Shown: piece after piece, positions 3,957 through 29,801 of the stretch
Layout of the letters: each line of letters opens with the position of its first letter
How positions within the stretch are numbered: the first letter of the stretch is position 1
Source: a virus
Taxonomy: Duplodnaviria; Caudoviricetes
Length of the DNA stretch: 38,307 nucleotides
Reading direction: 5' to 3' (one strand)
Virus record (IMG/VR): IMGVR_UViG_3300018018_000019
Span: 1-38,307 of that record
Program-made: the position numbers and the translations under genes
Notes under the pieces: model-generated
Told to the model about the DNA's origin: nothing
Database searches by the model: none
What the model saw: the letters and a program-made list of their open reading frames with translations, nothing else

Positions 3957-5563
3957 GGGATTTGCTCCACGGTTGCGGTCAGGCCGGCGATAGCATCGGG
4001 GCCAAGGGCGTCGGCGATGGCGGCGGCGTAATCGGTATTCTGCGACTCGCCGAAGTTAGCGGCGAAACTTCGCACGCAGAATTTGCGCCTCGAGCCGTGG
4101 GAATAGGCCGGGCTTTCCCACTGAAATTCGCCGTGGCCTCTGAGACCGTAATCGATAACGGCATCGGGCGCCGCGAAATTGAAGCCGGCGCCTGAATCGA
4201 TATAAACATTGAAGCCCGTCGGTGCGATTTCCTGGTCTGTTGGCGTGTATCGCCAGCGGAGAAGCACCTTGCCGCCCGCCAGGGGCATCGCCATCAAAGA
4301 TAACGGCTTATTAGGAGTCAACGTCCGCATTTCGCCGTCGGCGTCGATTTTAATGATGCAGACCGGGGAGTCGTGGCTTTCAAGTCCGCACGGAGCGACC
4401 TGGCGGCGGATAAAATGCCAGATAGTATTAGCCGGCAAGGTCTGACTCGGTATTGCGACCTGCGTGTCGTTGAGGTTCATCATTGCCACGGCCTGATAAT
4501 CGCCGGCTCCGTCCTGCCTTCGATAAATCCGGTGCCCGCCGATAAAAACGAAATTTGCAATTAAGGTGTAGTCATCGTCAACGGTAACGGTAATCGTTGC
4601 ATTTGATGGGTCTGTTGTTTTCCCCGCAGATACTGCGGTGCCGCTCCATCCTGTGAATTTATATCCTTTATGCGCAGTGACTGTTAGCTCGATTTGGCTC
4701 CCTTTATTCACTTCAATTACGCCGTCCTGCGGAGCGACCGACCCATGCTCGGATGTTACCGTTAAAATACTATGAGGAAATGATTCCACAGAATCTGAAA
4801 CTCCCCCATCTTCCATAGACCACTGACCAAAAAAATTGTATTGTTGGAGATATGCTTTTATTTCTCCCCATATATCCCAGACGCCGTCCGTCAGTGACTT
4901 AAACAGGAATGTTTCCGCTAATGTCTCGGTATCGCTTATGGCTGAATCGTCGTCGTTAAATTCCAGATAACATCCGTCGTTGCACATAACAGCAAATGCC
5001 TCTGGGTTTACAGTGGCACCATTGCCATTATTATAAATAGCAGAAATTTCATCCTGAGATAAAATTTTGTCTTTATAATACCTGAACTGATCAAAGTAAG
5101 TAGTATTTAGGTGCGTATGGGGGTTGCCGCCATGATTGAACTCTATCAAAGACGGAGTTATTACTGTTGCGGCAAGCGATGATATGTCCGCAGAACCAAT
5201 GAGAATTCCATTTATATATAAATTCATAAGCCCATCGCGGTTGAAAGTGGCAACCACGAAGATATTTGTATTGTTAACATAAGAACTGCTGGTAATTTCT
5301 ATATAATTGGCCGGGTTGTCGTCCTGACTCATTATGCATCGCCATACACCTCCACCCGTATCAGGGTCAAACCAGATCATAACCAACGGTCCGCTGTTGC
5401 CTATCCCCTGCCTTAACTGAAATAGGGTATAATCGGTCCCCTGGCATCCTTCGTTGTTGTTTTGCCACCAAAAACACATGCTGAAGTCGCATAAATCTGG
5501 GTTAAAAAAATCTTCATAAAGGAAGATTTCACCGCTGATTCTGGCCTTTATTCTTTTACCCAT
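3953..5563 (-). CDS. Putative adhesin: LamG/ConA-like lectin + InlB B-repeat-like + FN3-like domains
   Basis: FVVATFNRDGLMNLYING...FDQFRYYKDKILSQDEISAIYNNG (LamG); GYKFTGWSG...DYTLIANF (B-repeat); VLLRWRY...GFNVY...KFCVRS (FN3). Confidence 0.75.
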   Translation of the reverse strand: MGKRIKARISGEIFLYEDFFNPDLCDFSMCFWWQNNNEGCQGTDYTLFQLRQGIGNSGPLVMIWFDPDTGGGVWRCIMSQDDNPANYIEITSSSYVNNTNIFVVATFNRDGLMNLYINGILIGSADISSLAATVITPSLIEFNHGGNPHTHLNTTYFDQFRYYKDKILSQDEISAIYNNGNGATVNPEAFAVMCNDGCYLEFNDDDSAISDTETLAETFLFKSLTDGVWDIWGEIKAYLQQYNFFGQWSMEDGGVSDSVESFPHSILTVTSEHGSVAPQDGVIEVNKGSQIELTVTAHKGYKFTGWSGTAVSAGKTTDPSNATITVTVDDDYTLIANFVFIGGHRIYRRQDGAGDYQAVAMMNLNDTQVAIPSQTLPANTIWHFIRRQVAPCGLESHDSPVCIIKIDADGEMRTLTPNKPLSLMAMPLAGGKVLLRWRYTPTDQEIAPTGFNVYIDSGAGFNFAAPDAVIDYGLRGHGEFQWESPAYSHGSRRKFCVRSFAANFGESQNTDYAAAIADALGPDAIAGLTATVEQIP

Positions 5564-15757: not shown

Positions 15758-16384
15758 ATGAAAAACAAAATCTTCTTTGTTTTAGTAATTTTGTGCATCT
15801 TCCTTCCTTGTTTCGGAAGCGAACCCAATGAACCCAATGGGCCAGACAACGGCTTAAACAATGATTATAGCTCAATGGAAGCACGTTTAATTGCGCTCGA
15901 TGAACGACTTGACGCGTTGGAGGATAGAATTATTCAACTCGAGTCCGGTTCTTTGGATTCGGAATCGAACGATGTAAAATGTGCGACCGGTGTTTCCAAA
16001 GACCCGAACAAAATCGCCTTGCGGATAGAACGGGCAAAAAAGCAAATCCAGGATTCACAAACTGCCATTATTCTCGCTCAAACAAATATAGAGAGTTTGC
16101 CTTCGCCCCCACGTCCTTCCCTGGAAGATAAATTGAAAATACTCGATGACCAATGGAAATTATTAACCCAAATAGAAGTTAATTATCAAAAGATAATTCG
16201 GTGTGCGAAAAAAAATCCTGAACTTGCCGTCGATACCATTTCAATCCAAAAAAGCATTGTTGAGTGCCAAAACCAAAAAAAACAGGTTGAACTTGATAAA
16301 CAGCGAATCCTTGATATAATGCAGAGAAACGCCAATGCATATCACAATCGCGCAAAGACGGCCCCGGTTAATGTGAAAAAATAG
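15758..16384 (+). CDS. Secreted coiled-coil protein, moron-like
   Basis: Signal peptide MKNKIFFVLVILCIFLPCFG, EPNEPN, long heptad helices, own promoter. Confidence 0.75.
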   Translation: MKNKIFFVLVILCIFLPCFGSEPNEPNGPDNGLNNDYSSMEARLIALDERLDALEDRIIQLESGSLDSESNDVKCATGVSKDPNKIALRIERAKKQIQDSQTAIILAQTNIESLPSPPRPSLEDKLKILDDQWKLLTQIEVNYQKIIRCAKKNPELAVDTISIQKSIVECQNQKKQVELDKQRILDIMQRNANAYHNRAKTAPVNVKK

Positions 16385-16473: not shown

Positions 16474-16520
16474 ACGCTCGTCGGCTGAGTAGAATCAGTT
16501 GGCGAGCGTTGTTTTTTGTT
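16474..16520 (+). terminator. Intrinsic terminator/attenuator ahead of the late operon
   Basis: ACGCTCGTCGGCTGA...TCAGTTGGCGAGCGT followed by TGTTTTTTGTTT. Confidence 0.65.
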
Positions 16521-16589
16521 TGTGACAAAAACTCAATTCTTGCCTCAAAAACAAGGATTATTAGCGAAGTTCCACTGTATGGAACGTAG

Positions 16590-16632
16590 CCCCGCAGTCG
16601 TTTGAATTTTTCGCAGGAAAATTCTTGCGGGG
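16590..16632. repeat. Palindromic REP-like element
   Basis: CCCCGCAGTCGTTTGAATTTTTCGCAGGAAAATTCTTGCGGGG. Confidence 0.8.
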
Positions 16633-16645
16633 GAAAGGAATCCGT

Positions 16646-17146
16646 ATGAAGCGTTTTCTTCTTCTCGTTCTCATAATCTTCACGGCAGGGCCGCTGATTA
16701 TCCAGCCGGCTCATTCTGCCTGCTCGACTGACCCGAATAGCCCCACCATCTTGCCCGGATTTACCATTACTGCCGGGAAAACAATTAATTGGCGAGTGAG
16801 GGCGATTGACTCGGACTATGGTATTTACGGCGGCTATGTCGATGTTGTGGCGGGCAGCAATCCGGTGTGGGTAATATTCGGACCGAGAATAGCTCCTGAT
16901 GTGAATCAATATGTTTTCGCACCGAAAAATCTTACCTGCGATGGCAATATGGCGGACCCAAACACCACGCTAATCGTATCGAGGCAAATTACAATATCGC
17001 CACCTGTAATTTTTACGGGTAATTCCGCGATCAACTTTTCAACAACAGATGCCAATGGAATCAGTTATTGGCGCATCCCTTTCGCTGTAATCCCCCCGCC
17101 GAGAATAGGCATGTCGGGGGATGCGGGGGCTGACCAAAACAAATAA
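16646..17146 (+). CDS. Secreted Ig/cadherin-like protein
   Basis: Signal peptide ending AHSA; FTITAGKTINWRVRAIDSD; six D-x-N motifs; AAAGGA RBS. Confidence 0.7.
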   Translation: MKRFLLLVLIIFTAGPLIIQPAHSACSTDPNSPTILPGFTITAGKTINWRVRAIDSDYGIYGGYVDVVAGSNPVWVIFGPRIAPDVNQYVFAPKNLTCDGNMADPNTTLIVSRQITISPPVIFTGNSAINFSTTDANGISYWRIPFAVIPPPRIGMSGDAGADQNK

Positions 17147-17149
17147 AAG

Positions 17150-17464
17150 ATGTTTAAGAAGTGCCCGGATTGCGGCAATGAATATGAAGTCAATGAAGAA
17201 AATTTTTATCACACTGAATACACCGGCAACGGCCTTACGGATATTTGCAAGGGATGCTGTAAAAAACGCAGTGTGGCATATCATAAATTGCACCCGGAAA
17301 AATACAAATACTCACCAAAGCCGACAGCCAACCGGATCCGTTATTACCGCAGGGGATTTAGTTGGCTTGGAGTGTTTCAATTTTATGGAAGGAATTTTGC
17401 TTTAAGAAGTAACGGCCAGCTCGGCCACTTGGAAAGAATGAATATTTATATGAAAACTCAGTAA
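17150..17464 (+). CDS. Zn-finger protein
   Basis: KKCPDCG...ICKGC. Confidence 0.65.
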   Translation: MFKKCPDCGNEYEVNEENFYHTEYTGNGLTDICKGCCKKRSVAYHKLHPEKYKYSPKPTANRIRYYRRGFSWLGVFQFYGRNFALRSNGQLGHLERMNIYMKTQ

Positions 17465-17530
17465 AGGATTAGGCGAAGTCCCGTTTTATGGGGCGAAGTC
17501 CCGGCAAAGCCGGGGGAAAGGATTCTAATT

Positions 17531-18283
17531 ATGTTTCATAAAAAACAAATCCGTGTCAATCCGTGCAATCCGTGGTTAACGATTCTCTGTGCTCTCTGTG
17601 TCCTCTGTGGCTTGACTTTCTTCGTTGGCTGCGACCAAACCTCCGCCCAGCGAATCGCCGAGGTAAAGGCAGTCGTCGATAAGGCCAATATCCTCAATCA
17701 ATCCGTCGATGCCGGGATTACTGAGTTACAAACCGTGGCGCAGGCCAGCCAGGCGTTACTGCTCGATCCTAACGTCCCGGAATCGATGAAGCCGGCGATA
17801 TCGCAGGCACTGCAAACAGCTTCGGCGAAAATTACTCAGTTGCAGCAGCAGAAGGCAAAGATAACCGCATCCCTCGCTCAATGGCAGGCAATTTTGAATC
17901 AGACGGCCGCCGAAGGCAACGATATCGGCTTGACTCAGGAAATTCAAACTTATGCCTCGATGACCAATGTTTCTGCGTCTTATTTGCCAGCGCCTTACAA
18001 CGGCTATGTTTATTTAGGCAGCGCTTTAGCAGCCATTTTAGCCGGCCTCATTGCCTCAGTAATCAAAAATCTCCAGCAGAGCGGGCAGATTAACAGTTCA
18101 AAATCGGTTTTGACCGACCTTGTGATCTCCGTCGATTCTTTGCTTGACCCCAAAAACGCCGTGATTCCGCCTGATAAAGTCGAGGCGGCCAAAATTGTTC
18201 TGCAGCAAAATCAGACCGGCTCGACTCAGGATGCCGTCGATGCCATCCACGACCCGATGAAAAACACCGCCCCGACGAATTAA
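17531..18283 (+). CDS. Lipoprotein with coiled coil and downstream TM helix, candidate spanin/lysis protein
   Basis: Lipobox FVGC, helical body, TM YLGSALAAILAGLIASVI; lysis-gene position before gp25. Confidence 0.65.
   Translation: MFHKKQIRVNPCNPWLTILCALCVLCGLTFFVGCDQTSAQRIAEVKAVVDKANILNQSVDAGITELQTVAQASQALLLDPNVPESMKPAISQALQTASAKITQLQQQKAKITASLAQWQAILNQTAAEGNDIGLTQEIQTYASMTNVSASYLPAPYNGYVYLGSALAAILAGLIASVIKNLQQSGQINSSKSVLTDLVISVDSLLDPKNAVIPPDKVEAAKIVLQQNQTGSTQDAVDAIHDPMKNTAPTN
17548..17612 (+). repeat. Short tandem repeats (AATCCGTG x3; CTCTGTG x3)
   Basis: Seen directly; related copies at 19023-19082 and 36642-36660. Confidence 0.8.
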
Positions 18284-18301
18284 AACGAGAAAGGATTCTC
18301 C

Positions 18302-18712
18302 GTGGAAAAATTCCCGTGGTCTCTCGTTGTTACTGTTGTAGGCGCCCTGATGTCGCTTATCGGCGCCCTGATACTTTACAATCTTCAATCAATCAAGGCC
18401 TGCGTCCGCAAGGTTACTGAGCGGCTCGATAAGCAGGATTCAGCCATCGATAAGCAAAATGACAATATCGCCTCCATCAAGGAAAGTAACGATGTTCTCG
18501 TCAATTCGCTGGCCAACTGCAAAGTTGATTGTCACCGAAATTTTGTCACCGGCGAGGCATTTCTGCGAGAGACCGGCTTTATGCGTCGCACCCTTGAGAC
18601 ACAGACAGCGTCTCTGAATCGAATGGAAGGCCAGTTGACCATAACCGAAAAGTTGCCGGAAATCGTCGGCGAAATCAGCCGCAATATCGTCGCGGAGATG
18701 AAGAAAGGGTAA
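18302..18712 (+). CDS. Mu gp25-like TM + coiled-coil protein
   Basis: N-terminal TM, coiled coil, synteny before gp26/gp27. Confidence 0.65.
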   Translation: MEKFPWSLVVTVVGALMSLIGALILYNLQSIKACVRKVTERLDKQDSAIDKQNDNIASIKESNDVLVNSLANCKVDCHRNFVTGEAFLRETGFMRRTLETQTASLNRMEGQLTITEKLPEIVGEISRNIVAEMKKG

Positions 18713-18715
18713 AAA

Positions 18716-19021
18716 ATGAGCGATCCTGAAGCAACTATTTACAAGCAGATACTCTTGTTCGTTCTCGACTGTCTTAATCGCGTTTACCCATCTCCTTTGC
18801 AGGTTAGAACATTATACAGAGTCGTCATCGGCTTATTTAACAACTATAGCAAATCACTGATGAACAAAGACATCGCCTTCCTCAAACAAAAGGGCTATAT
18901 CGAATATGTCGATTCAAAAATTGATAGTGATCCTGAGTTTATGGATAAATGTGTCGGTTTGACCGCCAAGGGCAAGGAAATAGCAATGCGTATTCAGACC
19001 GACCCGGCGCTGGAGATTTGA
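18716..19021 (+). CDS. Mu gp26-like winged-helix protein
   Basis: DIAFLKQKGYIEY...LTAKGKEIA; synteny. Confidence 0.7.
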   Translation: MSDPEATIYKQILLFVLDCLNRVYPSPLQVRTLYRVVIGLFNNYSKSLMNKDIAFLKQKGYIEYVDSKIDSDPEFMDKCVGLTAKGKEIAMRIQTDPALEI

Positions 19022-19022
19022 A

Positions 19023-19082
19023 CCACAGATTATGCAGATTTTGCAGATTAAACTCTATGGTCTCTGTGTCCTCTGTGGCTAA
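19023..19082. repeat. Intergenic short tandem repeats
   Basis: CCACAGATTATGCAGATTTTGCAGATT followed by CTCTGTGTCCTCTGTGG. Confidence 0.75.
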
Positions 19083-19114
19083 AAAAAAGGTGAAAAAAAA
19101 GAGAAAGGATTCTT

Positions 19115-19621
19115 ATGTTAAAGGACACAAAAATTGACATCGGCCTGGTTGTGATGTGCTTACTCATGCTTGTCGCTAATTTACTCTTCGGCTCCACGAC
19201 CTTCACAACCTCGAAAAACAGTTACTTCGGCCGCGAATCGTCCGTTGAAAAATTGACCGTCTCTGTTGTCCCTGTTCACAAACAGGACGTCAACGATCAC
19301 AACGATGTTAATTCGACCGCTACCGATGGCAATTCAATCTATGGTGAGCTGCGGCGGATTACATTATCGGCGACCGGCACCGATGTAAATTTCACGGTCG
19401 CTGTAAAGGATGACAAGGGCATAACGCTTTTCTCGAAGACCGACTGTAATACGGCCTTGCTGCCTTTGAGTTATGCCCTCGATATGAATAATTCGATTGC
19501 CACGCGGTATCCGGGTATTTATGTCGCCGGTCCTTTGACGGTGGAGACAAATTACGTTGACCCGAACACTGTAACCGGCCTGACCGGAATAAATGTAACA
19601 TTCTACTACCAGCGATTTTAA
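19115..19621 (+). CDS. Secreted/anchored beta-rich protein with D-x-N motifs
   Basis: Hydrophobic N-terminus; eight D-x-N motifs; TAATG-coupled to gp27. Confidence 0.75.
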   Translation: MLKDTKIDIGLVVMCLLMLVANLLFGSTTFTTSKNSYFGRESSVEKLTVSVVPVHKQDVNDHNDVNSTATDGNSIYGELRRITLSATGTDVNFTVAVKDDKGITLFSKTDCNTALLPLSYALDMNNSIATRYPGIYVAGPLTVETNYVDPNTVTGLTGINVTFYYQRF

Positions 19622-20187
19622 TGGCACAAAGAAGAACACATAGTTCGCTCGATAAATTGCCCGCCTCGCTGAAAGACGAGCTGATTCGTATGCTCGTTGA
19701 CAACGAGTATCCGATTGAATTCGCGGGCGATAAAACCGGCAAGCCCAAATACGAGGACATCGTCGCCTATTGCAAGCAGCGGGGCCACATCGTCTCACGT
19801 TCGGCGGTTGGGCGGTTCGGTATGACGATGCGGACGATTAGCAGGATGAAGCAGGCGGGCCTGATTACACGGGAGGTTATGAAAGGCCTTACCGACGAAA
19901 AGGCCTCGGCAACACAAAAGGCCGTCGCGGAAATGGTTACGGCTGTAGGTATTGAGTTCATCAGTTCGAATGAAACTTTTACTGCCAAGGAAATCAGTGA
20001 GGTCGCCAAGGCCATCAAGGATTGTGCTGCCGTGGCTATCGCCTCGGACAAATACACCCGCGAGCAGCTCACCAAGAAAGTCGCCGCAGCGACCGAATCG
20101 ACGAAGGCCAAGCTCACAAAGGCCGGCGTTGACAGGAAACTGATTCAGGAAATCATAGATGAGCATTTGGGAGTCGTAAAATCATAG
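19621..20187 (+). CDS. Mu gp27-like (DUF3486) putative small terminase
   Basis: HSSLDKLP...GHIVSRSAVGRF; immediately precedes the terminase. Confidence 0.85.
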   Translation: MAQRRTHSSLDKLPASLKDELIRMLVDNEYPIEFAGDKTGKPKYEDIVAYCKQRGHIVSRSAVGRFGMTMRTISRMKQAGLITREVMKGLTDEKASATQKAVAEMVTAVGIEFISSNETFTAKEISEVAKAIKDCAAVAIASDKYTREQLTKKVAAATESTKAKLTKAGVDRKLIQEIIDEHLGVVKS

Positions 20188-20204
20188 AGACCCAGGCCAA
20201 TACG

Positions 20205-21554
20205 TTGCCGAAAGGTTATTTCCTGCCATATCAGCAGGACTGGATTCTCGACCAGTCCAACGCGAAGATATCGGAGAAGAGCCGTCGTATAGGTATGACT
20301 TACGCGGATAGTTACGAGACCTGCCGTGAGCGAAACCTTATCGACCATCGCCGCGACTTATGGTTCTCAAGCGCAGATGAATCGGCTGCCCTCGAATATG
20401 CCCTTTATTGTAAGCAATGGTGCGAGCTGATGGATATCATTATCAGGGAAATCACCGAGCAGCTCGAAGATGAGAAAAAGCAAAAGTATAATAACTACGT
20501 CATCATATTTCCCAACGGCTCCCGCGTAAACTGCATGACCAGTAATCCCCGCCGATTCAGGTCCAAGGGCGGGGATGTGGTCCTCGATGAATTCGCCTGG
20601 CACGATGAGCCGGGCCTGATGCTCGATGCAGCTCTACCCACGACGACGTGGGGTTATAATATCCGGGTGCTGTCAACTCATAACGGCGAGGAGTCGGAGT
20701 TTAACCGGATAATTTCGCTGGTCAATAAAGTCAAGAATGGCGAATTGTCTTTTGACGAGGCGCATTCTCTTCACTGGTCATTGCACAGGACGACGATTCA
20801 GGACGCCGTCGCCCAGGGTCTCGCTGAAAAGGTTTACAAGCTCGACCACGTTGACCAGGTTGCACGTCAAAAGTTTTTGAAAGAATGTCGTGCCCGCTGC
20901 CGCAACGAGGATGCCTGGAATCAGGAATATATGTGCAAGCCCTCGACGGCCTTGCTCGCCCTTATCCCTTATGAATTATATCAATCGTGCGAGGATGCAA
21001 ACTGCCTGCAGGAACTTGTCCCGCATACAAAAGAACGCCGTGAATATTATCTCGGCGGCGATATCGGCAGGGTGCATGACAGGACGGTCTTCTGGATTGA
21101 TGAGAAGGTCGCCGACCTGATGATTTCCCGCAAGGTAATCAAGCTGCATAAAACTCCGTATCATGCCCAGTTGCAGATGCTTTGTGATTTGCTCGTCAAT
21201 CAGAATATCCGTCGCGCCTGTATAGATGCGACAGGTATCGGCGATATGCTCGTCGAGGAGGCGCAGAGGATTCACGGCTCATATCGTGTGGAGGCGGTCA
21301 AATTCACTAATGAAATCAAAGACCATCTCGCCTCTCTCGGTCGCGGTTTATTCGAGGACCGAAGGTGTCGTGTCCCCGATGATCGCGAAATCCGTGATAG
21401 TTTTCATACCGTCCGCAAAATTATGACCTTATCCGGCAATATCCGTTACGATGCTGCCTCGACCGAATCCGGCCACGCCGACGACTTCTGGGCATTTAAC
21501 CTGGCCAAAGAAGCCGCGAGGACATCCGTTACGCCTGAATGTATTTTGCTATGA
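20205..21554 (+). CDS. terL: Mu gp28-type terminase large subunit
   Basis: FLPYQ, EKSRRIGMT, VVLDEFAW, STHNG, GGDIGR, IDATGIG, GHADDFWA. Confidence 0.95.
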   Translation: MPKGYFLPYQQDWILDQSNAKISEKSRRIGMTYADSYETCRERNLIDHRRDLWFSSADESAALEYALYCKQWCELMDIIIREITEQLEDEKKQKYNNYVIIFPNGSRVNCMTSNPRRFRSKGGDVVLDEFAWHDEPGLMLDAALPTTTWGYNIRVLSTHNGEESEFNRIISLVNKVKNGELSFDEAHSLHWSLHRTTIQDAVAQGLAEKVYKLDHVDQVARQKFLKECRARCRNEDAWNQEYMCKPSTALLALIPYELYQSCEDANCLQELVPHTKERREYYLGGDIGRVHDRTVFWIDEKVADLMISRKVIKLHKTPYHAQLQMLCDLLVNQNIRRACIDATGIGDMLVEEAQRIHGSYRVEAVKFTNEIKDHLASLGRGLFEDRRCRVPDDREIRDSFHTVRKIMTLSGNIRYDAASTESGHADDFWAFNLAKEAARTSVTPECILL

Positions 21555-23965
21555 CAAAATCCAAAACAAAAAGCGGAGCCCTTGGCGGAGTCTCGCTTCG
21601 GCGAGATAAATCACGTTCTAAAGCGTCTCGCTCAGCAAGGACCAAATCGGCCGAGAGCAAATCTATGCCGTGGTGGGATATCTTTTTTGGCGCCGATGAA
21701 ATTGCGAGATCCGAGAGTAAGGCGAAGGCGCCTTACAAGCAGGTATCGCTCGTTTATACATGCGTTAATGAGCTTATAAAAGGTATTCAATCGCTGCCCC
21801 TGGTATTGTCAACTATCGATGAACGCATCGTGGAATCCGGCCCTGTTTATGATTTGCTTTTTAACGGCAAACAATCCTGGCAGCATTTTGTCGAGCAGAC
21901 CATCGGCCATTTCGCCTTGTCGCATGATGTCTTCTGGATTTTTCTCGATGACCAGGGCAATCCCGATATAGGCGGCGTCGGCTCGAAGACCAGGGAAATC
22001 TACGTCGTCAGCGGCACACAGATGCGGGCAATGACGGATACCGGCTCCGAATCCGGCAATCTCATCGGCTGGGAATATTTCGGCCGTAACGGAGAACATG
22101 CACTATTTACGCCGGCCGAGGTCTGGCAGTGGAAAGGTTTTGACCCTTATAGAAAATTTCACGGTCTCGCCCCGATAGTCGCGGCCGCTAATGATATCAA
22201 TTACACCTTTGCGGCCTCGCTTTATAACGCCAGCACGCTTGCCAACGGAGCAGAACCCGGCGCTATTCTGACAACGCCCGGCAAACTCGATGATGACCAA
22301 ATCCGAATGTTGCGAGAGCAGTTCGATGCCCGCCACAAAGGCGCAGGCCAGACCAAGCGAACCGCACTGCTTACGGGCGGTCTCGATATTAAAACAATCG
22401 CGATGAAGCTTGCGGACCTCGAAGTCGCCGAAATAACAAAGATGAGTGACGCCAAAATCTGCTCGACCTTTGGCGTTCCCCCCGGCGTCGCGGGCCTGAT
22501 AACCGAAGCGCAGTACTCCCACGGTCCTGCGATGCGACAATTTATTTTTAATACTATATTGCCTCTGGCTGGCTCTTTCGCCGGCAATATTGACACCGGC
22601 ATTATTTCCCGATTCACATCTTCAAAATTATTTGGCGAAAATTTCCCCGCCATTGCCCGAGCGCAGGCCAAGTTCTTTACGGGCAGCCGGTCGCTGCCCA
22701 TGACGCGCAATCGCTTCTATCGCGAATCACTTCAAAAGGCAGTCCGTTCCCAGGGCAAGGTCTTTGCCTGGTTTGATGCCAATCAGCATCCCGTTGTCCA
22801 GGAGGCGATGCAGGAATCCGCCGAAAAGGCGTTGAAGCATACCACGTACGGCGTCAAACTCAATAACATCATCGAGGCCTACGATTTGCAGTATGAGACG
22901 GTCCCTTGGGGCGATGATTGGTGGATTGCTATGGGGCAGATTCCGGCGCGTTACACCCTCGAAGCAGGCCCCGGTGGAACAGCTAATCCGCCATATCCCG
23001 GCGAGACGCCGCCTGAGACAGAACCCCTGCCTGAACCAGAGCCGGGCAAATCAGTTAACGAACATCGAGTATCCAGTATCGAGAATCAAGAATCGAAAGC
23101 AGATGATGCACGCCGCCTGCGGATATGGAATAACTGGAAAATCTCCTGGGCAGGCATCGAGCGGGAATACAAAGAGCAGCTTCGAATCCTTTTCGTTCAT
23201 CAGCAAAATGAACTGATAAAAAAACTCCGCTTGGCTGCTATGCTTCCAAACAAAGGCGTGGAATCAGTGTTTAAACTTTCCCCTGATGAGATAATTGCCC
23301 GCGTCGTTTTCGATTTGACCATCGAAGACAACAAAGTCCGCGTCATCAATCAGACCTTTTTCGACAAGGCCTCTGAACTTGGCATTCGCCAGGTCTTCAA
23401 TGAAATCGTCGGATTGACCGGCGATAAGCTCAATGAGCAAACGCAGGCCGCGAAAAATTCTATCTGGCTAAAAGGCAAACTGTTAATCAGCTCGCAAAAA
23501 ATAACCGGTATCAATCGCACTACCCAGAAGTTGGTGGCCAGCCAGCTCAAAACAGGTCTCGAATCCGGCGAGACCGTAAACGATCTTGCTAATCGTATCG
23601 GTCATGTCCTCGGTGAAAACCGGGGACGCGCCCTGAATATTGCCCGCACACAGACGGCGGGCGCCGTGGGATCTGGCAGGCACACGGGAATGAAGGCGGC
23701 CGGTGTCGAATTGAAGTCGTGGTTAACGGCCGGTGATGAGACGGTCCGCTCGGCTCACCGCGAGGCGGGACAGAAATACGCCGACGGCATCGCCGTCGAT
23801 TTGCCGTTCGTTGTAGCTGGCGAAACCCTGATGTTCCCCGGCGATCCCTCCGGCTCGGCCGGAAATATTATCAACTGCCGCTGCGTCGAGCTGGCCAAAC
23901 TTGCCGGCGGCAAATCATTTGACTTGGCCTATTATGAAAATGTTAATTTTGCGGTTAGGAGCTGA
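21551..23965 (+). CDS. HK97-type portal fused to a Mu gpF-like minor head protein
   Basis: GLAPI...NGAEPGAIL...ICSTFGVPP (portal); Pro/Glu linker; RALNIARTQT, KSWLTAGDETVRSAH, PGDP...INCRC (gpF). Confidence 0.9.
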   Translation: MTKSKTKSGALGGVSLRRDKSRSKASRSARTKSAESKSMPWWDIFFGADEIARSESKAKAPYKQVSLVYTCVNELIKGIQSLPLVLSTIDERIVESGPVYDLLFNGKQSWQHFVEQTIGHFALSHDVFWIFLDDQGNPDIGGVGSKTREIYVVSGTQMRAMTDTGSESGNLIGWEYFGRNGEHALFTPAEVWQWKGFDPYRKFHGLAPIVAAANDINYTFAASLYNASTLANGAEPGAILTTPGKLDDDQIRMLREQFDARHKGAGQTKRTALLTGGLDIKTIAMKLADLEVAEITKMSDAKICSTFGVPPGVAGLITEAQYSHGPAMRQFIFNTILPLAGSFAGNIDTGIISRFTSSKLFGENFPAIARAQAKFFTGSRSLPMTRNRFYRESLQKAVRSQGKVFAWFDANQHPVVQEAMQESAEKALKHTTYGVKLNNIIEAYDLQYETVPWGDDWWIAMGQIPARYTLEAGPGGTANPPYPGETPPETEPLPEPEPGKSVNEHRVSSIENQESKADDARRLRIWNNWKISWAGIEREYKEQLRILFVHQQNELIKKLRLAAMLPNKGVESVFKLSPDEIIARVVFDLTIEDNKVRVINQTFFDKASELGIRQVFNEIVGLTGDKLNEQTQAAKNSIWLKGKLLISSQKITGINRTTQKLVASQLKTGLESGETVNDLANRIGHVLGENRGRALNIARTQTAGAVGSGRHTGMKAAGVELKSWLTAGDETVRSAHREAGQKYADGIAVDLPFVVAGETLMFPGDPSGSAGNIINCRCVELAKLAGGKSFDLAYYENVNFAVRS
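23063..23097 (+). repeat. Heptamer tandem repeat in the portal-gpF linker
   Basis: CATCGAG TATCCAG TATCGAG AATCAAG AATCGAA. Confidence 0.7.
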
Positions 23966-23968
23966 AAT

Positions 23969-24676
23969 ATGGATCCGAAATTCAATTTTTTCATAGTCAA
24001 GGCCATCGACACTGAAAAAAGAACTGTAGATGCTACCGCATCCACCGGCGATCTTGACAGAGACAACGAACGGATTTTGCCTTCCGCCTTTAATGATATC
24101 GATTCGTTTAAATCTAACCCTGTCATTCTGGCTACTCACCAACATCGCCTCCCAAGCGGCTCCTCTCCGGTCATCGGTTCGGCTATCCCTGAATCAATCT
24201 CGATTGGTGCGAATGAAGTCACCTTTAAAATGCACTTCGCCGAGACGCCGCTGGGCGAAGAGTACTGGAAGCTTTACAAAGATAAGCACATGCGCGCCTT
24301 TTCAATCGGATTTATTCCCCTCGAGTGGAAGGACGATAAAGACGTCCGGACATACACCAAAATTGAGCTGCTTGAAATCTCGGCAGTCCCCGTCCCCAGC
24401 AATCGCCGTGCGCTGGCACGCGCAAAAGGTTTCTTCGATAACGAGGACAACAAGGAAACTATTGCCGCTGCAATTAAAGAGCAGTTCGATGACCTCAAAC
24501 AATCCATCGAGCAGCAGCTCGATGATATCAAATCGATGATTATCGCCAATCCGAACGAACTGGCGGATTCCCTGCTCAGTGGGAATTCCGAACTGTCCGC
24601 TCCTGGTGGCGACACAATTAAAAACGCTGAGCATCATTTAAACAGAATCAAAAAAGCATTTGGAAAGGTTGACTAA
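23969..24676 (+). CDS. HK97-family prohead protease
   Basis: DRDNERI, NPVILATH, AFSIGF, LLEISAVPVPSN. Confidence 0.92.
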   Translation: MDPKFNFFIVKAIDTEKRTVDATASTGDLDRDNERILPSAFNDIDSFKSNPVILATHQHRLPSGSSPVIGSAIPESISIGANEVTFKMHFAETPLGEEYWKLYKDKHMRAFSIGFIPLEWKDDKDVRTYTKIELLEISAVPVPSNRRALARAKGFFDNEDNKETIAAAIKEQFDDLKQSIEQQLDDIKSMIIANPNELADSLLSGNSELSAPGGDTIKNAEHHLNRIKKAFGKVD

Positions 24677-24677
24677 T

Positions 24678-26075
24678 ATGCCTCCAACATTAGAACAAAT
24701 CGAGCAGCAGCTTAAAACGACTGCTGACACGATTGAAGCAGGCGTTAAGGATATTAACGCCAACAAGGCCAGCAAGCAGGAAGTCGTCGATAAGATTAAC
24801 GAGCTGACAAAAGTCGACAAGGAATTAATCGGCAAGGCACAGGCCGATATCACACAGCTCAACACCGGCATCGCCGAGGTCACAAAAACAATCGGCGACC
24901 TGAGGACGCAGATATCGAATTTCCGGTCTGCCAAGTCCTCGATATTATTTGAGGGCGGCAGATACAACGGCAATTTCTCCTCGCCGAACGAAGCCAAGGC
25001 ATTTGCCTTACTGGTCCTGACCGCCGCGACCAGGGGAACCAAGGCCGAAACCAGATTCGACTGGGCGAAAAAGGCGCTCGATGCCATGGGCATCGAACCG
25101 TACCTCGTTGACGGCAACGGCCATAAAGCGATGGTCGGCTCATCGCAGACAGGCGGCGGCTCGCTTGTCGGTATCGAGCAGATACCTTCCGTCAAGATGA
25201 TGTTCGAGACCTACGGCGTCGCTCGTTCCGATTTCCAGATTATGCCGATGGGCGCTGGGCAAACCCTGATGCCCAAATGCGACAAATTGCTCGATGTTAC
25301 TTGCCCCGGCGAAGGCAACGAAATCGACGATACCGATCCGAAGATTCCCATCATCGCCTTGACGCCGAAAACGCTTTGTGCCTTGACCACCTACGGCATG
25401 GAGCTGGAGGAAGATTCACTGGTCGCTCTCGGTGAATTGCTTGCCGGGCTGTTTATTCGGTCATTCGCGTACGCTGAGGACAAAATCGGTTTCCTCGGCG
25501 ACGGCACGAGCACGTATTTCGGCTTTAAGGGTATCGTCGGTGCTCTGATGGCGGTTAGCGGCACGATATCCAAAATCAGGTCGCTGATTGTGGGCTCCGG
25601 CAACGCCTACAGCGAATTAGTCCTCGGCGACTTCGAGAAGGTCCCCGGTATTCTACCGGATATGGCGGATGACGGATTCGCCAAGTGGTACTGTCACCGG
25701 TATTTCTATTGGACCGTAATAGTGCGTCTTGCTCTCTCTGCCAGCACCGGCTCCGCACAGGAAATCCTTTTGGGCGAGGCGACCAGGCAGCGCGGCTTCC
25801 TGTCCTATCCGGTCAAGTTCGTCCAGGTAATGCCCAAGGCCGAGGCCAACAGCCAGATAGCGGCATTGCTGGCCAACTTGAAGATGGGCGCCATTCTCGG
25901 CACCCGTGGCGGCATCGAATTCGCCCAGTCATCCGAGCGCTACTTCGAGAAGGGCCTTATCGCCGTTCGCGGCCGTAACCGTGTGGCAATTAATGCCCAC
26001 GGTGTCGGCGATTCGACCGATGTTACCGACGGCAACGCCGGCCCAATTTGCGGGCTGATTACGGCTGCATCTTAA
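24678..26075 (+). CDS. HK97-fold major capsid protein with N-terminal coiled-coil scaffold domain
   Basis: GGGSLV, EGNEI, ELEEDS, FLGDGT; follows the protease. Confidence 0.9.
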   Translation: MPPTLEQIEQQLKTTADTIEAGVKDINANKASKQEVVDKINELTKVDKELIGKAQADITQLNTGIAEVTKTIGDLRTQISNFRSAKSSILFEGGRYNGNFSSPNEAKAFALLVLTAATRGTKAETRFDWAKKALDAMGIEPYLVDGNGHKAMVGSSQTGGGSLVGIEQIPSVKMMFETYGVARSDFQIMPMGAGQTLMPKCDKLLDVTCPGEGNEIDDTDPKIPIIALTPKTLCALTTYGMELEEDSLVALGELLAGLFIRSFAYAEDKIGFLGDGTSTYFGFKGIVGALMAVSGTISKIRSLIVGSGNAYSELVLGDFEKVPGILPDMADDGFAKWYCHRYFYWTVIVRLALSASTGSAQEILLGEATRQRGFLSYPVKFVQVMPKAEANSQIAALLANLKMGAILGTRGGIEFAQSSERYFEKGLIAVRGRNRVAINAHGVGDSTDVTDGNAGPICGLITAAS

Positions 26076-26082
26076 TGCAGCC

Positions 26083-26128
26083 GCCCCGCAGTCGTTTGAA
26101 TTTTGTTAAGGCAAAATTCTTGCGGGGC
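26083..26128. repeat. Palindromic REP-like element
   Basis: GCCCCGCAGTCGTTTGAATTTTGTTAAGGCAAAATTCTTGCGGGGC; diverged relative at about 26742-26782. Confidence 0.8.
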
Positions 26129-26263
26129 CAGGCGAGCGATGCTCTTTGATATTTGTAATTTGATTTACCCCTGCCTGGTTCGACAGGCCGGGCAGGGTAT
26201 CTGTAAAATCGGGAAAGTTTAGTTCGGATTCGATTTTATTAACGATATTTGAAAGGCAAAAAA

Positions 26264-26722
26264 ATGGACCTTAGAGCAATGTTAAAGGCATTGAAGTTTA
26301 CACAGCTTCTGCCTACAGAAAAATTCAAAAACAATAGCGCTTTCGGGGGCAATACCTACGTCGATACTTTGGGGTTATCGGCGATATTGTTCCTGTTCGA
26401 TTTGGGGACTACAGATGTCATTGTCGGCTCCGGAGGCACTTCTTTGCCGCCATTCATCGAGGAATGCGACACGACAGGCGGCTCATATACGGCCGTCGAT
26501 GATGCCGAATTGGCTGCCGTGCTTGCAGCCAATGGCGACAGCAAGCTGCGGGGAATATTTATTGACCTGACCAAAACGCACAAGCGTTATATGCAGGTCA
26601 ATGCCCCGACAGCCGGCAATGCCACCGGCGCCAATCTGAGCATCCTTGCTATCGGATTCCCATCCGACCAGATGCCGGGGTCGGCAGCGGATATGGGCCT
26701 CGCGGAATTGATAGAAGTGTAG
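26264..26722 (+). CDS. Putative head decoration/minor capsid protein
   Basis: Beta-rich, VDTLG, EECDTTGGSYT, KRYMQV; directly after the capsid gene. Confidence 0.65.
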   Translation: MDLRAMLKALKFTQLLPTEKFKNNSAFGGNTYVDTLGLSAILFLFDLGTTDVIVGSGGTSLPPFIEECDTTGGSYTAVDDAELAAVLAANGDSKLRGIFIDLTKTHKRYMQVNAPTAGNATGANLSILAIGFPSDQMPGSAADMGLAELIEV

Positions 26723-26796
26723 TCCCGCTTTGCGGAACGAAGTCCAGGCGCCGTTTGATTTTTGTAAAAAATCTGCCGGGACGTAGTAGATTTCTC

Positions 26797-26820
26797 CCCG
26801 CCCCTTCGGGGGCGGGTTTT
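26797..26820 (+). terminator. Intrinsic terminator after the head genes
   Basis: CCCGCCCC-TTCG-GGGGCGGG-TTTT. Confidence 0.75.
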
Positions 26821-26867
26821 GCTCTCATAAAATTGAAAGATGAATAGAATTTTTTAAGGAATAAATT

Positions 26868-27392
26868 ATGTGGGTAAAAATTAACGAAGCTTACGCAGGC
26901 CCGCTGGGTATATTCATTGCCGGCCAGAAATACGACATTTCCGGTCCTCTCAAAGATAAACTTATCAAAGCTCTCGGCAAAGGCGCCGTCATCCCCACTT
27001 GTGCTCCCTGGGAAGAAAAAATAGATACAAAAGCAATCGAGGCCAACAAACTGAAGGCCCAGGCAAACGAGGCGATATCGCAGGTCGAGCATTTGTGGGC
27101 GAAGATTAAATCTTGTGTGGATCACTTGAATGCTTATACCGACCAAGCCAAATCAAACAAGGAAGCTCTCGATAAAGCTATAAAACATAAAGCCAAAAAC
27201 CAGAATGAGCTTCACGTTAAATGCAAAATTGGGATGGGCTATTCTTTGATTGCCGAAGGCGAACTCGCCCTGGCTGAATTGGAGTTAAAAGATGCAGAAC
27301 AAACAGCAACCGAACTCGCGGCAAAAGCCGGAATTGAGTTCAAGCCGGCAGGAGCCGCAGAAACAAAAGCAGCAGGAAACGCCCAAAGATAA
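26868..27392 (+). CDS. Hypothetical coiled-coil protein
   Basis: 174 aa, AAGGA RBS, Ala/Lys/Glu-rich helices. Confidence 0.7.
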   Translation: MWVKINEAYAGPLGIFIAGQKYDISGPLKDKLIKALGKGAVIPTCAPWEEKIDTKAIEANKLKAQANEAISQVEHLWAKIKSCVDHLNAYTDQAKSNKEALDKAIKHKAKNQNELHVKCKIGMGYSLIAEGELALAELELKDAEQTATELAAKAGIEFKPAGAAETKAAGNAQR

Positions 27393-27547
27393 GCAGTTCC
27401 GGACAGATAGAAATTCGGATTACGTAACGAAGTGAAGTCTCGCATAGCGAGATAAAACAAAATAGTGAAGCGAAACAAAGTGTGAAGCCTTGCAAAATCT
27501 CGGCTTCCGAGAAAGCCCCGACAGCCGGGTGAAAAGGAATACGAATT

Positions 27548-28093
27548 ATGAAAAAGATACTTATTCTGGTAGCGATGGTGTTGATGCTTTTTGTTTGCCG
27601 GGCACAGGCGGCCTACGACAAAACGGGTTTTCAAACTTCCGAAGCCAGGAAGGCAATATCAGAAGACATAACCGGACTTGAATACGACTCAAGGTTGGGT
27701 ATTTTCAGACTGACCTCCGGTTATTTTATCCCAACTGACGCCAACACAAAACAGTCACAACTTACTAATATTACTGATGTCAATGTGAGGGATATCAACG
27801 CCCGCAATATCGATGCTTGCGATGTGAATATAAAAGGGACATTGATAGGCGTTACGGCGGCGAATTTAAGAACATTATTGGGCGAGGTAAGAGGCGCTAC
27901 CGGCGCATTGACTGGCGATAAAGTAATAACACATGGATTAGGGGCTGATCCTAATGTCATTGCACAGACGCCGGACCCGAATGTTAAGATAAAAGTTATA
28001 GCTCATGATGCCACCACATTTACTCTTCGGCCTTTGGATGTTAACGATATAAATATTGCCGCTACAAATGCCTCTTGGATTGCATGGAAATGA
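27548..28093 (+). CDS. Secreted fibre-like protein with D-x-N motifs
   Basis: Signal peptide MKKILILVAMVLMLFVCRAQA; eight D-x-N plus one DAC; VITHGLG...TTFTL fibre-tip-like end. Confidence 0.75.
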   Translation: MKKILILVAMVLMLFVCRAQAAYDKTGFQTSEARKAISEDITGLEYDSRLGIFRLTSGYFIPTDANTKQSQLTNITDVNVRDINARNIDACDVNIKGTLIGVTAANLRTLLGEVRGATGALTGDKVITHGLGADPNVIAQTPDPNVKIKVIAHDATTFTLRPLDVNDINIAATNASWIAWK

Positions 28094-28857
28094 AAATATA
28101 TACAAAATTATTTTTGGTTTTTTTGATCATTCTGTGTTTGTTCAAAACCCAGCCACTTTTCTCAATAGCGAATCCTGCAGGGCCAAGCGGCTCACGATGG
28201 GGCAGCATCCGGGGCGATATCAACGACCAGAATGATCTGAAAACTACCTTAAACGCAAAATTGTCCGGCGTGCCGGATGCCTGTGCTTCACTCTGGAATG
28301 GCAAGACGACTATTGCTGATGCCTGCCAGACCTTATGGAACAGCAAAACCGCCATAGCAGACGCCTGCCAAATATTGTGGAATAATAAAATTTCCGGCGT
28401 GCCGGATGCCTGTGCTTCGCTTTGGAACGGCAAGACAACAATCGCTGATGCATGCCAAACCTTATGGAACGGCAAAAAAGATGTGAATTTATATGATGGC
28501 GATGAGCATCTTCTGGCTACCGTTTATGATGTGAATATGACGGCAGGCGCAGCCGCAACCACTCTTTATACCGCGCCGGGCGATGCGAATTTTATCCCGA
28601 CAAGAGTTTTAATTTACAACGTCAATAACTCTTTGGCGGGAGGATCTTCGTATACTTTTACTGGATTGCCAGCGGGGCAAAATCTCATTTCTATGACCAC
28701 ACCATATACACTGTATCGAATCTTAACTTTGCTCCCCGGTGGCTCTATGGTTACTACTGTCGTCGCCGCCGGAAATCCATTCACAATTACAATAACAACG
28801 GGTTCGACCGCAACTGCATTGGCTACAATCAAAGTTTACGGAGTGCTGATACGATAA
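28090..28857 (+). CDS. Secreted protein with five 14-15 aa DAC..LWN repeats and a beta-rich C-terminus
   Basis: Signal-like N-terminus, WGSIRGDINDQNDL, repeats with synonymous DNA changes; ATGA-coupled. Confidence 0.75.
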   Translation: MKIYTKLFLVFLIILCLFKTQPLFSIANPAGPSGSRWGSIRGDINDQNDLKTTLNAKLSGVPDACASLWNGKTTIADACQTLWNSKTAIADACQILWNNKISGVPDACASLWNGKTTIADACQTLWNGKKDVNLYDGDEHLLATVYDVNMTAGAAATTLYTAPGDANFIPTRVLIYNVNNSLAGGSSYTFTGLPAGQNLISMTTPYTLYRILTLLPGGSMVTTVVAAGNPFTITITTGSTATALATIKVYGVLIR

Positions 28858-29801
28858 TGGCTAAAGAATCGATATATCAGGCCGATGCACTTGAAACAAT
28901 AGATGCCGTTCTTCGTAATGCCCAGACCGGGCAGGTTTGCGTGGTTTCAACCGGCTCATTTGAGGTCTGGGGAACATCTGGTCATACGCGAACTAATTAC
29001 GCAATAGCGCATACAAGCGATGGCGGCTTACTTTATACGGCCGATATGCCTGACAATGTCCCGGTTGGCGATTACTTTTTCGTATATACCGCCCGGCAGG
29101 GCGACTTACCCGCCGATGATGACCCATACAGGGGCCAGTCGCAAGCCAAACACTGGAACGGCAGCGCACTGGTCGATATCCCGGAGGAATCCGGCCGCCA
29201 TCTTTGTCTTCTCGCGGATGTCAAGACCCGCCTGGGCGTAAGCAATACCGATAATGATTTAATCATCGAATCAATCATCGCCGGTATCGACGGCGCCTTC
29301 GATAATTATGTTAATCGGACTCTATTGATGACCGACGCCGACGTAACTGAATATTTCGGCGCTGATCCCGGCTGGCAGCGATTACTCCTCAAGCGATATC
29401 CGATTATCTCGATTACGTCAATCAAGGAGGCCGCCAACTACGACTTCGATTCAGCCGAGGCGCTGGTCGTAAATGAGGATTACCGAATCGTTAACAGTGG
29501 TTTAAACGGCATTATATACCGCATAGACGGCCGCTGGCTCGCGGGGGAGGACGTAATCCAGGTTATTAGTCGCGGCGGCTACTGCGGGGCAGGCGAGACG
29601 CCTTCCACAGGCGAACACGCGATTCCTAATGAATTACGAGAGGCAGCAATCCTGCAGGCGACCTTTATGTTTAAGCGCAAAGACGATATCGGCCTCAATT
29701 CCGTTTCCACGATGGGCGGCTCAATATCGAAATTCGCCGACGTGGAGCTGCTGCCGTTGGTTAAGCAGGTTCTCGACAAATATAAACGACCTTCTTTGTG
29801 A
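28857..29801 (+). CDS. Head-tail connector (gp6-like) with an extra N-terminal domain
   Basis: LCLLADVKTRLGV...DNDLII...LKRYPIISITSI...IPNELREAAI...VKQVLDKYK. Confidence 0.8.
   Translation: MAKESIYQADALETIDAVLRNAQTGQVCVVSTGSFEVWGTSGHTRTNYAIAHTSDGGLLYTADMPDNVPVGDYFFVYTARQGDLPADDDPYRGQSQAKHWNGSALVDIPEESGRHLCLLADVKTRLGVSNTDNDLIIESIIAGIDGAFDNYVNRTLLMTDADVTEYFGADPGWQRLLLKRYPIISITSIKEAANYDFDSAEALVVNEDYRIVNSGLNGIIYRIDGRWLAGEDVIQVISRGGYCGAGETPSTGEHAIPNELREAAILQATFMFKRKDDIGLNSVSTMGGSISKFADVELLPLVKQVLDKYKRPSL

What the first reader, a model, noticed from the sequence alone, without database searches (positions are those of the whole stretch)
16646..28857. Signal-peptide proteins loaded with D-x-N / D-A-C motifs embedded in the morphogenesis operon
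Seen: 16646, 19115, 27548 and 28090 all have export-type N-termini and contain 6, 8, 8 and 5 D-x-N tripeptides (DPN, DVN, DAN, DIN), plus 1 and 5 DAC in the last two; by eye the cytoplasmic proteins lack this density. 19115 is coupled to gp27 and the 27548-28090 pair to the head-tail connector, and their mature parts look like fibre/decoration beta domains. Known: tailed virions assemble in the cytoplasm; the Campylobacter PglB sequon is D/E-x-N-x-S/T, which only some sites fully match (DVNST, DVNFT, DMNNS, DVNMT). Inference: virion decoration proteins are exported, modified in the periplasm by a host system recognising D-x-[N/C], and added to particles at lysis, giving a second route to a modified virion surface.
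Basis: partly seen in the sequence, partly recalled or inferred. Interest (0 to 1): 0.85.

Follow-up and report, generated by a model that had tools for sequence, protein, structure and literature searches.

The report
Exported phage proteins carrying host tag
A Mu-like phage puts export-type leaders on four late proteins (three with decoration- or fibre-like parts) and loads them with a short D-x-N/C motif that is also the most over-represented motif in the exported proteins of its likely host order, so the motif is likely a host modification tag, probably for sugars, and the proteins would join the virus particle only after the cell bursts.

Summary
The four genes carry hydrophobic leaders and 6, 8, 8 and 5 D-x-N (27 against 3.4 expected).

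The motif is not phage-specific. In exported proteins of the bacterial order that hosts close relatives of this phage (Phycisphaerae, likely Sedimentisphaerales), DPN (100/23) and DPC (34/5) are the two most enriched of 8,000 tripeptides. Cytoplasmic proteins and control Planctomycetota show little or no excess. Proline is absent after the Asn/Cys (0 of 208), there is no Ser/Thr preference at +2, and no PglB was found, so this is not the Campylobacter sequon. The refined motif is [D>E]-[P/A/V]-[N/C]-not-P. I found it in none of ten literature searches.

The 19115 family is phage-associated, leader-bearing (20 of 20 in phage loci), a predicted jelly-roll, and lies just after the capsid gene in unrelated phages. 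Leaderless homologs of neighbouring domains lack the motif.

Export is well supported by sequence. Modification, the enzyme and return to the virion are inferred. Leader-bearing, MS-annotated structural proteins of Cellulophaga phage phi10:1 are a precedent for the last step.

The parts
16646..17146 (+). 166-aa leader-bearing protein, 6 D-x-N; no family, 2 homologs; first gene after a terminator-like site
19115..19621 (+). 168-aa leader plus predicted jelly-roll, 8 D-x-N; phage-associated family; stop overlaps the Mu gp27-like start
27548..28093 (+). 181-aa leader protein, 8 D-x-N and 1 DAC; fibre-like with a Gp53-like_C/H-lectin-type tip (lead only, score below 0.9)
28090..28857 (+). 255-aa leader protein, 5 D-x-N and 5 DAC in a tandem repeat; fibre-like by recalled N-terminal motif; coupled to 27548 and to the connector
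   Evidence: AF2 model unusable
28258..28477 (+). two 91-nt direct repeats (88% identical) encoding the DAC repeats
15758..16384 (+). 208-aa leader protein with EPNEPN and DPN; same motif, outside the late block
17531..18283 (+). 250-aa lipoprotein-like protein with one DPN, conserved in Mu-like relatives
16474..16509 (+). terminator-like hairpin upstream of 16646
19621..20187 (+). context: Mu gp27-like / small terminase
24660..26075 (+). context: HK97-type major capsid protein
28857..29801 (+). context: head-tail connector with an N-terminal extension; no leader, 0 D-x-N

Best explanation
The phage's late accessory proteins 19115, 27548 and 28090 (and 16646) begin with export-type leaders and carry the [D/E]-[P/A/V]-[N/C]-not-P motif that is enriched in the exported proteins of the likely host order; they are likely sent through Sec into the periplasm, likely modified there on the Asn or Cys by a host general glycosylation system that is not PglB, and would bind finished particles as optional decoration or fibre parts when the inner membrane breaks at lysis. 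Shown: leaders (by heuristic), motif enrichment in phage and host exported proteins, Pro exclusion, no +2 S/T bias, gene position. Predicted: jelly-roll fold of 19115. Inferred: cleavage and export (about 0.9), an enzyme-read tag (about 0.75), glycosylation of Asn/Cys as the chemistry (about 0.6), virion attachment for at least one of the three (about 0.55; weaker for 16646).
For: Host tag: DPN 100/23 and DPC 34/5 rank first and second of 8,000 tripeptides in 324 exported proteins from 10 genomes of one order. DP[NC] is 134/28 in exported, 40/25 in cytoplasmic (16/17 without G096) and 3/4.2 in 81 exported proteins of 8 control genomes. Pro follows 0 of 208 D[PAV]N vs 72 of 1087 [^DE][PAV]N, p=3.5e-6. 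In 28 orthologs of a SurA-like PPIase the sites fall at shifting positions in Ala/Pro-rich linkers and one loop (DPN 35/1.3, EPN 29/2.3, DAN 19/2.6, DVN 19/1.5; 0 of 117 followed by Pro). N and C are used differently by genome: G096 has 19 tandem (D/E)PN pairs and 0 tandem DPC, G442 has 16 tandem DPC. Prophages with 62% and 54% identical capsid lie in G001 and G002 of that order. Phage side: 53 leader proteins have D-x-N 190/52, 159 cytoplasmic ones 111/126. The 19115 family has leaders in 20 of 20 distinct members from phage loci (one is the window's own) and lies within three genes after the capsid gene in phages of three PHROG capsid families. Its C-terminal extension matches major-tail and sheath PHROGs, and two leaderless putative tail-tube genes carry that domain with 0 motifs. 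L106_11396 (leader, 9 motifs) has a leaderless homolog L108_11782 with 0. L285_11446 (leader) and leaderless L288/L321 homologs fill the same post-capsid slot. Precedent: phi10:1 gp091-094 have leaders and are annotated as structural from MS/MS.
Against: No mass spectrometry or virion exists for this phage or host. No enzyme is identified; PMT_2-type GT-C genes are as numerous in controls (5-25) as in the order (12-22). I recall no oligosaccharyltransferase that uses both Asn and Cys. The fold match is unspecific: KHP40 cement Z 9.0 (rmsd 2.9, 106 aligned) ties with dopamine beta-hydroxylase Z 9.6 and PHM Z 8.9. The genes are dispensable: 19115 is missing in 10 of 17 other loci spanning its slot, and 27548/28090 in 15 of 15 spanning theirs. 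Envelope-type leader proteins (barrel-like by eye: L107_4301, L214_2994, L275_11304; LamG protein L106_9831) sit in the same neck modules, so position does not prove virion residence. Three of 10 order genomes showed no excess in small samples (G209 2/1.6, G409 0/0.7, G422 0/0.0), G096 also has excess in its 'cytoplasmic' set (24/8.7, at least 7 from two proteins that look like fragments of secreted ones), and Pro after D[PAV]N is also low in the order's cytoplasmic set (2 of 107).
Confidence: 0.45

Rival explanations
1. The proteins are exported and tagged like host proteins but stay in the envelope or are released free, as morons, superinfection blockers or receptor decoys recycled from virion domains; they are not virion parts.
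For: Patchy presence; barrel-like and LamG leader proteins in the same modules; the motif also marks 15758 and 17531; 16646 has no virion-type homolog.
Against: No sigma-70-like promoter on the + strand between 26324 and 29200 and tight coupling to the connector; the family recurs just after the capsid gene in unrelated phages; leader and leaderless homologs share one slot; phi10:1 precedent.
Confidence: 0.3
2. The motif is real and host-wide but is not a glycosylation site: it is another modification (for example a radical-SAM cross-link or a lipid or phospho-form addition), a sorting signal, or a favoured Asx-turn or Ca2+-binding loop.
For: Asn and Cys interchange is hard to fit to known oligosaccharyltransferase chemistry (recalled); PglB core and GT41 not found in 5 of 5 genomes; a radical-SAM-matured periplasmic protein with tripeptide repeats exists (HXS, PMC13128918, abstract); some D-L/I/V-N sites lie in dockerin-like loops (by eye).
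Against: A purely structural preference should not be confined to one lineage or form tandem DPN/DPC runs; +1 Pro exclusion and location in Ala/Pro-rich linkers of periplasmic housekeeping proteins resemble glycosylation sites (the resemblance is recalled knowledge).
Confidence: 0.2
3. The sites are ordinary PglB-type N-glycosylation sequons (D/E-x-N-x-S/T).
For: An acidic residue at -2 and Pro exclusion at +1 match PglB; 4 of 27 window sites are full sequons; 5 of 121 order genomes pass the STT3 cut-off.
Against: S/T at +2 after host DPN is 14 of 99 vs 12.5 expected; full sequons 116 vs 108.5; Pro at -1 is the main form; the STT3 hits are partial N-terminal matches and the three scanned also match PMT/PMT_2; PglB core 0 of 5.
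Confidence: 0.04

Closest known systems
Campylobacter PglB N-glycosylation, sequon D/E-X-N-X-S/T with X not Pro (PMC4894442, passages read)
   Same: Extracytoplasmic substrates; acidic residue two before Asn; no Pro after Asn.
   Different: No S/T at +2; Pro favoured at -1; Cys appears in place of Asn; no PglB found in the order's genomes searched.
Cellulophaga phage phi10:1 gp091-gp094 (GenBank KC821618; annotation and sequence checked)
   Same: Late genes of a tailed phage with export-type leaders, annotated as structural proteins from MS/MS.
   Different: Other host phylum; no D-x-N excess (1-4 sites vs 1.0-5.2 expected); no homology tested or claimed; the underlying MS data were not seen.
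Jelly-roll capsid cement and spike-base proteins: KHP40 (7dou), Pam1 (7eel), BPP-1 (3j4u), RcGTA Rcc01079 (PMC7296036, passages read)
   Same: Small jelly-roll (19115 model, Z 7.2-9.0 for the three cements); optional head decoration; RcGTA pairs a jelly-roll base with a fibre.
   Different: The passages read on RcGTA mention no signal peptide; the Z scores tie with non-viral folds; the window has another candidate cement gene (26249, inferred from position) with no detectable homology to 19115.
Mycobacteriophage virion glycosylation (Freeman et al. 2023, seen only as a citation in PMC12691614; mechanism recalled)
   Same: Glycans on a tailed-phage surface.
   Different: There, phage-encoded glycosyltransferases act on leaderless capsid or tail proteins (recalled); here a host extracytoplasmic system is inferred. 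The window also has its own GT2 gene (306-2315).

Membership tests
PglB/STT3 N-glycosylation substrates | Ser/Thr at +2 of the Asn | tested here: not met
   14 of 99 vs 12.5 after host DPN; 35 of 189 vs background 0.169 in phage leader proteins; 4 of 27 in the window
PglB/STT3 N-glycosylation substrates | No Pro at +1 | tested here: met
   0 of 208 and 0 of 34; 0 of 112 in phage leader proteins; 0 of 117 in PPIase orthologs
PglB/STT3 N-glycosylation substrates | No Pro at -1 (CjPglB) | tested here: not met
   DPN is the most enriched form, 100/23; rule from PMC4894442
PglB/STT3 N-glycosylation substrates | Host encodes a full STT3/PglB | tested here: inconclusive
   Only partial N-terminal hits in 9 of 121 genomes; core domain 0 of 5; genomes are incomplete and a divergent enzyme could be missed
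PglB/STT3 N-glycosylation substrates | Glycan on the Asn | not testable with these tools
   needs mass spectrometry
Cytoplasmic NGT/OGT (GT41) substrates | Host encodes a GT41 | tested here: inconclusive
   0 of 5 incomplete genomes
Sec/SPase I exported proteins | Basic n-region, hydrophobic h-region, small residue at -1 | tested here: met
   heuristic only; 64 of 75 family hits have a hydrophobic N-terminus, most others look truncated or spurious; SignalP not available
Jelly-roll capsid cement/decoration proteins | Single jelly-roll fold | tested here: met
   19115 model pLDDT 86.6; KHP40 cement Z 9.0, rmsd 2.9, 106 aligned, tied with non-viral folds
Jelly-roll capsid cement/decoration proteins | Sequence family membership (Pfam, PHROGs, NCBIfam) | tested here: not met
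   no hit for 19115 at E<=0.01
Jelly-roll capsid cement/decoration proteins | Present on the mature capsid | not testable with these tools
   needs virion proteomics or cryo-EM
Phage fibres with Gp53-like_C/H-type lectin tip (27548, 28090) | Fibre shaft plus lectin-type tip, trimeric | tested here: inconclusive
   Atlas leads at 0.83-0.87 and TM 0.42-0.52; no Pfam hit; 28090 model pLDDT 41; trimer not tested
Mu-like transposable phages (the window) | Mu transposase, B-type ATPase, Gam, GemA, gp27 | tested here: met

The most novel reading that the evidence does not exclude
Sedimentisphaerales have an undescribed general extracytoplasmic modification system, a non-STT3 transferase that reads [D/E]-[P/A/V]-[N/C]-not-P and attaches a glycan to either an Asn amide or a Cys thiol with no downstream Ser/Thr; several unrelated tailed phages of this order route decoration and fibre proteins through Sec to collect that host tag and coat their particles with it at lysis.
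Probability: 0.3. Interest if true: 0.92.

Novelty: new variant of a known kind. Interest (0 to 1): 0.76.

Why it matters
A lineage-wide motif that tops all tripeptides in exported proteins, excludes Pro at +1 and swaps Asn for Cys points to a protein-modification enzyme with a recognition rule unlike N-x-S/T. If it is a transferase it would widen the known chemistry of bacterial glycosylation (N- and S-linked from one motif) and be useful for glycoengineering; cultured members of the order exist, so one MS experiment tests it. The motif also works as a sequence marker of which phage proteins leave the cytoplasm, giving independent support that virion-type proteins with leaders really are exported, which tailed-phage assembly models do not include.

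Tried and rejected
Complex prediction of capsid (146-465) with 19115 (28-168): no answer, score 0.00, uninformative. AF2 of 28090 as a single sequence: pLDDT 41, not used. Profile-profile comparison of the 19115 family with two cement-slot families and with connector N-terminal extensions, and of connector extensions with L012/L015 leader proteins: no homology, probability under 1%. The 19115 profile found nothing in 401 phylum and 41 order genomes, and the L106 member nothing in 50,697 GenBank phages. Avoidance of D-x-S/T as the cause: DPS 34/28 and DPT 27/27 are not depleted. A DNA-level motif: rejected, in-frame with varied codons. GT-C gene counts do not separate the order from controls. 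A Wzy_C+TPR protein next to a GT4 initiating transferase in G434 is a lead only. Sequencing runs: three peat DNA runs, no RNA holder listed; contigs showed no clean deletion of the four genes. 'Dockerin-like' and 'barrel-like' are by-eye labels; Pfam gave no such hit at E<=0.001. G097 and G005, used as controls, belong to another small order and do have tandem DPN pairs, so they are imperfect controls. More sequence from the DPC-rich genome G442 could not be obtained, so N-for-C exchange in orthologs is untested. PMC10945688 and PMC11557425 (passages) gave nothing on the motif.
Full report
What the window is. The 38.3-kb record is a Mu-like transposable phage: Mu transposase, B-type ATPase, Gam, GemA and gp27, followed by terminase, portal-MuF fusion, HK97 protease and capsid, connector and tail tube. 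No host genome is attached.

The observation. The four genes have 6, 8, 8 and 5 D-x-N against 0.7-1.0 expected from shuffles; none of the other 40 of 44 ORFs is significant. Pooled, 27 vs 3.4. All four start with a basic-then-hydrophobic leader (heuristic; no SignalP). 19115 overlaps gp27, and 27548-28090-connector overlap in turn. The five DAC arise from a tandem duplication. Only 4 of 27 sites are full PglB sequons, which is chance level. 15758 and 17531 also have leaders and the motif.

The host. Capsid relatives (62% and 54%) lie in genomes G001 and G002, which fall in the same order as G096. A 48% identical 19115 homolog and its capsid come from a MAG named Phycisphaerae bacterium, and another family member from 'Planctomycetes bacterium GWC2_45_44' / Phycisphaerales. 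Some labels disagree: Pirellulales for the G001 contig, Marinimicrobia and Dehalococcoidales for the L118 capsid cluster. The order name Sedimentisphaerales is my inference from these labels and recall; no call printed it for these handles.

The motif is a host trait. I sampled 1.77 Mb from 10 genomes of that order and 8 other Planctomycetota, called ORFs and sorted them by a hydrophobicity heuristic. In 324 exported proteins DPN (100/23) and DPC (34/5) are the two most enriched of 8,000 tripeptides; neither is in the top 25 of the order's cytoplasmic set or of either control set. DP[NC] is 134/28 in exported, 40/25 in 527 cytoplasmic (16/17 without G096) and 3/4.2 in 81 exported control proteins. 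Seven of 10 genomes show the excess; three small samples do not. G096 and G209 were chosen for tandem DPN matches, a selection bias; the other eight were not, and without G096 the ratio is 86/16. DAN (59/37), DVN (49/32) and EPN (36/18) are weaker forms; phage proteins use DAN and DVN more (63/6 and 64/6 in 72 family members). Pro never follows D[PAV]N (0 of 208 vs 72 of 1087, p=3.5e-6), though it is also scarce in the cytoplasmic set (2 of 107). There is no S/T preference at +2 (14 of 99 vs 12.5). In 28 orthologs of a SurA-like PPIase, recovered from the 30 best-scoring loci among 91 matching genomes and found with a motif-rich query (so biased upward), sites recur at shifting places in Ala/Pro-rich linkers and one loop, with 0 of 117 followed by Pro. 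Tandem DPC-DPC occurs in 17 of 151 order genomes (16 copies in G442), whereas G096 has 19 tandem (D/E)PN pairs and no tandem DPC. I infer an enzyme-read motif, [D>E]-[P/A/V]-[N/C]-not-P.

It is not the PglB system. CjPglB needs D/E-X-N-X-S/T with neither X Pro (PMC4894442, passages). STT3 gave only partial N-terminal hits in 9 of 121 genomes, the three scanned also match PMT/PMT_2, and neither the PglB core nor GT41 was found in 5 of 5 genomes; these genomes are incomplete. GT-C candidates are many but equally many in controls. Glycosylation remains the likeliest chemistry by analogy (acidic -2, Pro exclusion, flexible linkers of periplasmic proteins); Asn/Cys interchange is unexplained.

The phage proteins. 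19115 has 75 relatives; 64 have hydrophobic N-termini, and 72 (three spurious or fused hits dropped) hold 295 D-x-N vs 59 expected. Several sites are gained independently: the column that is DTS/DTA/DTD in 26 of 45 rows reads DVN in the window and DPC in another. The model is a jelly-roll (pLDDT 86.6); cement proteins of KHP40, Pam1 and BPP-1 are among the matches but tie with non-viral folds. Atlas look-alikes are 90-100% viral. In Mu-like relatives it sits before gp27 in 7 of 17 other loci that span the slot (further partial loci). In unrelated phages it lies within three genes after the capsid gene, often extended by a domain matching major-tail and sheath PHROGs. All 20 distinct members in phage loci have a leader. 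27548 has no near-length homolog and only sub-threshold fibre-tip leads. 28090 has two homologs, both with leaders and 11 and 6 motifs. Neither gene is present in 15 of 15 loci spanning capsid to connector. 16646 has two homologs and no family.

Leader and motif travel together. Across 25 selected phage loci, 53 leader proteins have D-x-N 190/52 and 159 cytoplasmic ones 111/126. Leaderless homologs lack the motif: putative tail tubes L268/L291 and L108_11782 vs L106_11396. Export can occur without it: L285_11446 has a leader, no excess, and leaderless homologs in the same slot; 121 of 159 loci with those capsid types had no leader gene on the + strand.

Do they return to the virion? For: slot, coupling, no own promoter, virion-type domains, and phi10:1 gp091-094, which have leaders and an MS/MS-based structural annotation. 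Against: dispensability, and envelope-type leader proteins in the same modules. I put attachment at about 0.55. Earlier AI notes of this scan report the same pattern in other phages (35 word matches, 8 shown); they are leads, not support, and they mean the export part is recurrent rather than unique. Searches of those notes for the motif or the 19115 sequence found nothing.

What is in print. Ten searches (listings only unless stated) found no description of the motif or of exported decoration proteins of tailed phages; most subscription journals are not covered. Read as passages: PMC4894442, PMC7296036, PMC10218006, PMC12691614, PMC10945688, PMC11557425; abstract and outline: PMC13128918. No supplements were read.

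Verdict. A real and strong signal whose main content is host-level: a candidate new modification motif of an order of Planctomycetota, adopted by exported phage proteins.

Noticed in passing
L011:12008-12979: One open frame joins a leader, a dockerin-like segment (by eye) and a CBM-like segment to a homolog of the window's 30402 tail-completion-slot protein; internal starts exist, so a cytoplasmic short form is possible.
   Followed up: partly
window 17585-17621 and 19053-19080: A short-unit repeat shared with many other contigs of the peat runs; one copy is translated as part of the 17531 leader.
   Followed up: partly
window 16589-16638 and 26083-26132: Two copies of a 50-nt element, upstream of 16646 and just after the capsid gene; possibly regulatory.
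   Followed up: no
window 306-2315 (-): 669-aa protein with a GT2 glycosyltransferase domain and a Cys-rich N-terminus at the genome end; a candidate phage-encoded, cytoplasmic glycosylation route.
   Followed up: no
window 28857-29190; L001, L003, L005, L008, L026 connectors: The head-tail connector has a ~110-aa N-terminal extension that differs between the window and five relatives, and is absent in others (200-aa form).
   Followed up: partly
L107:4301-5029, L214:2994-3677, L275:11304-11984: Leader-bearing proteins that look like outer-membrane barrels (by eye, no Pfam hit) directly after the head-tail adaptor gene.
   Followed up: partly
G097 and G005: A second, four-genome order of Planctomycetota has tandem DPN pairs (14 and 6 copies), so the trait may extend beyond the host order.
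   Followed up: no
L183:12589-15946 (G434): A Wzy_C+TPR ligase-like gene next to a GT4 initiating transferase; a 770-840-aa Wzy_C frame occurs in 5 of 5 order genomes searched. Candidate transferase, untested.
   Followed up: partly
window 3953-5563 (-): 536-aa protein with LamG-like and InlB B-repeat domains but no leader and no motif, similar in part to the motif-rich L108_9866.
   Followed up: no
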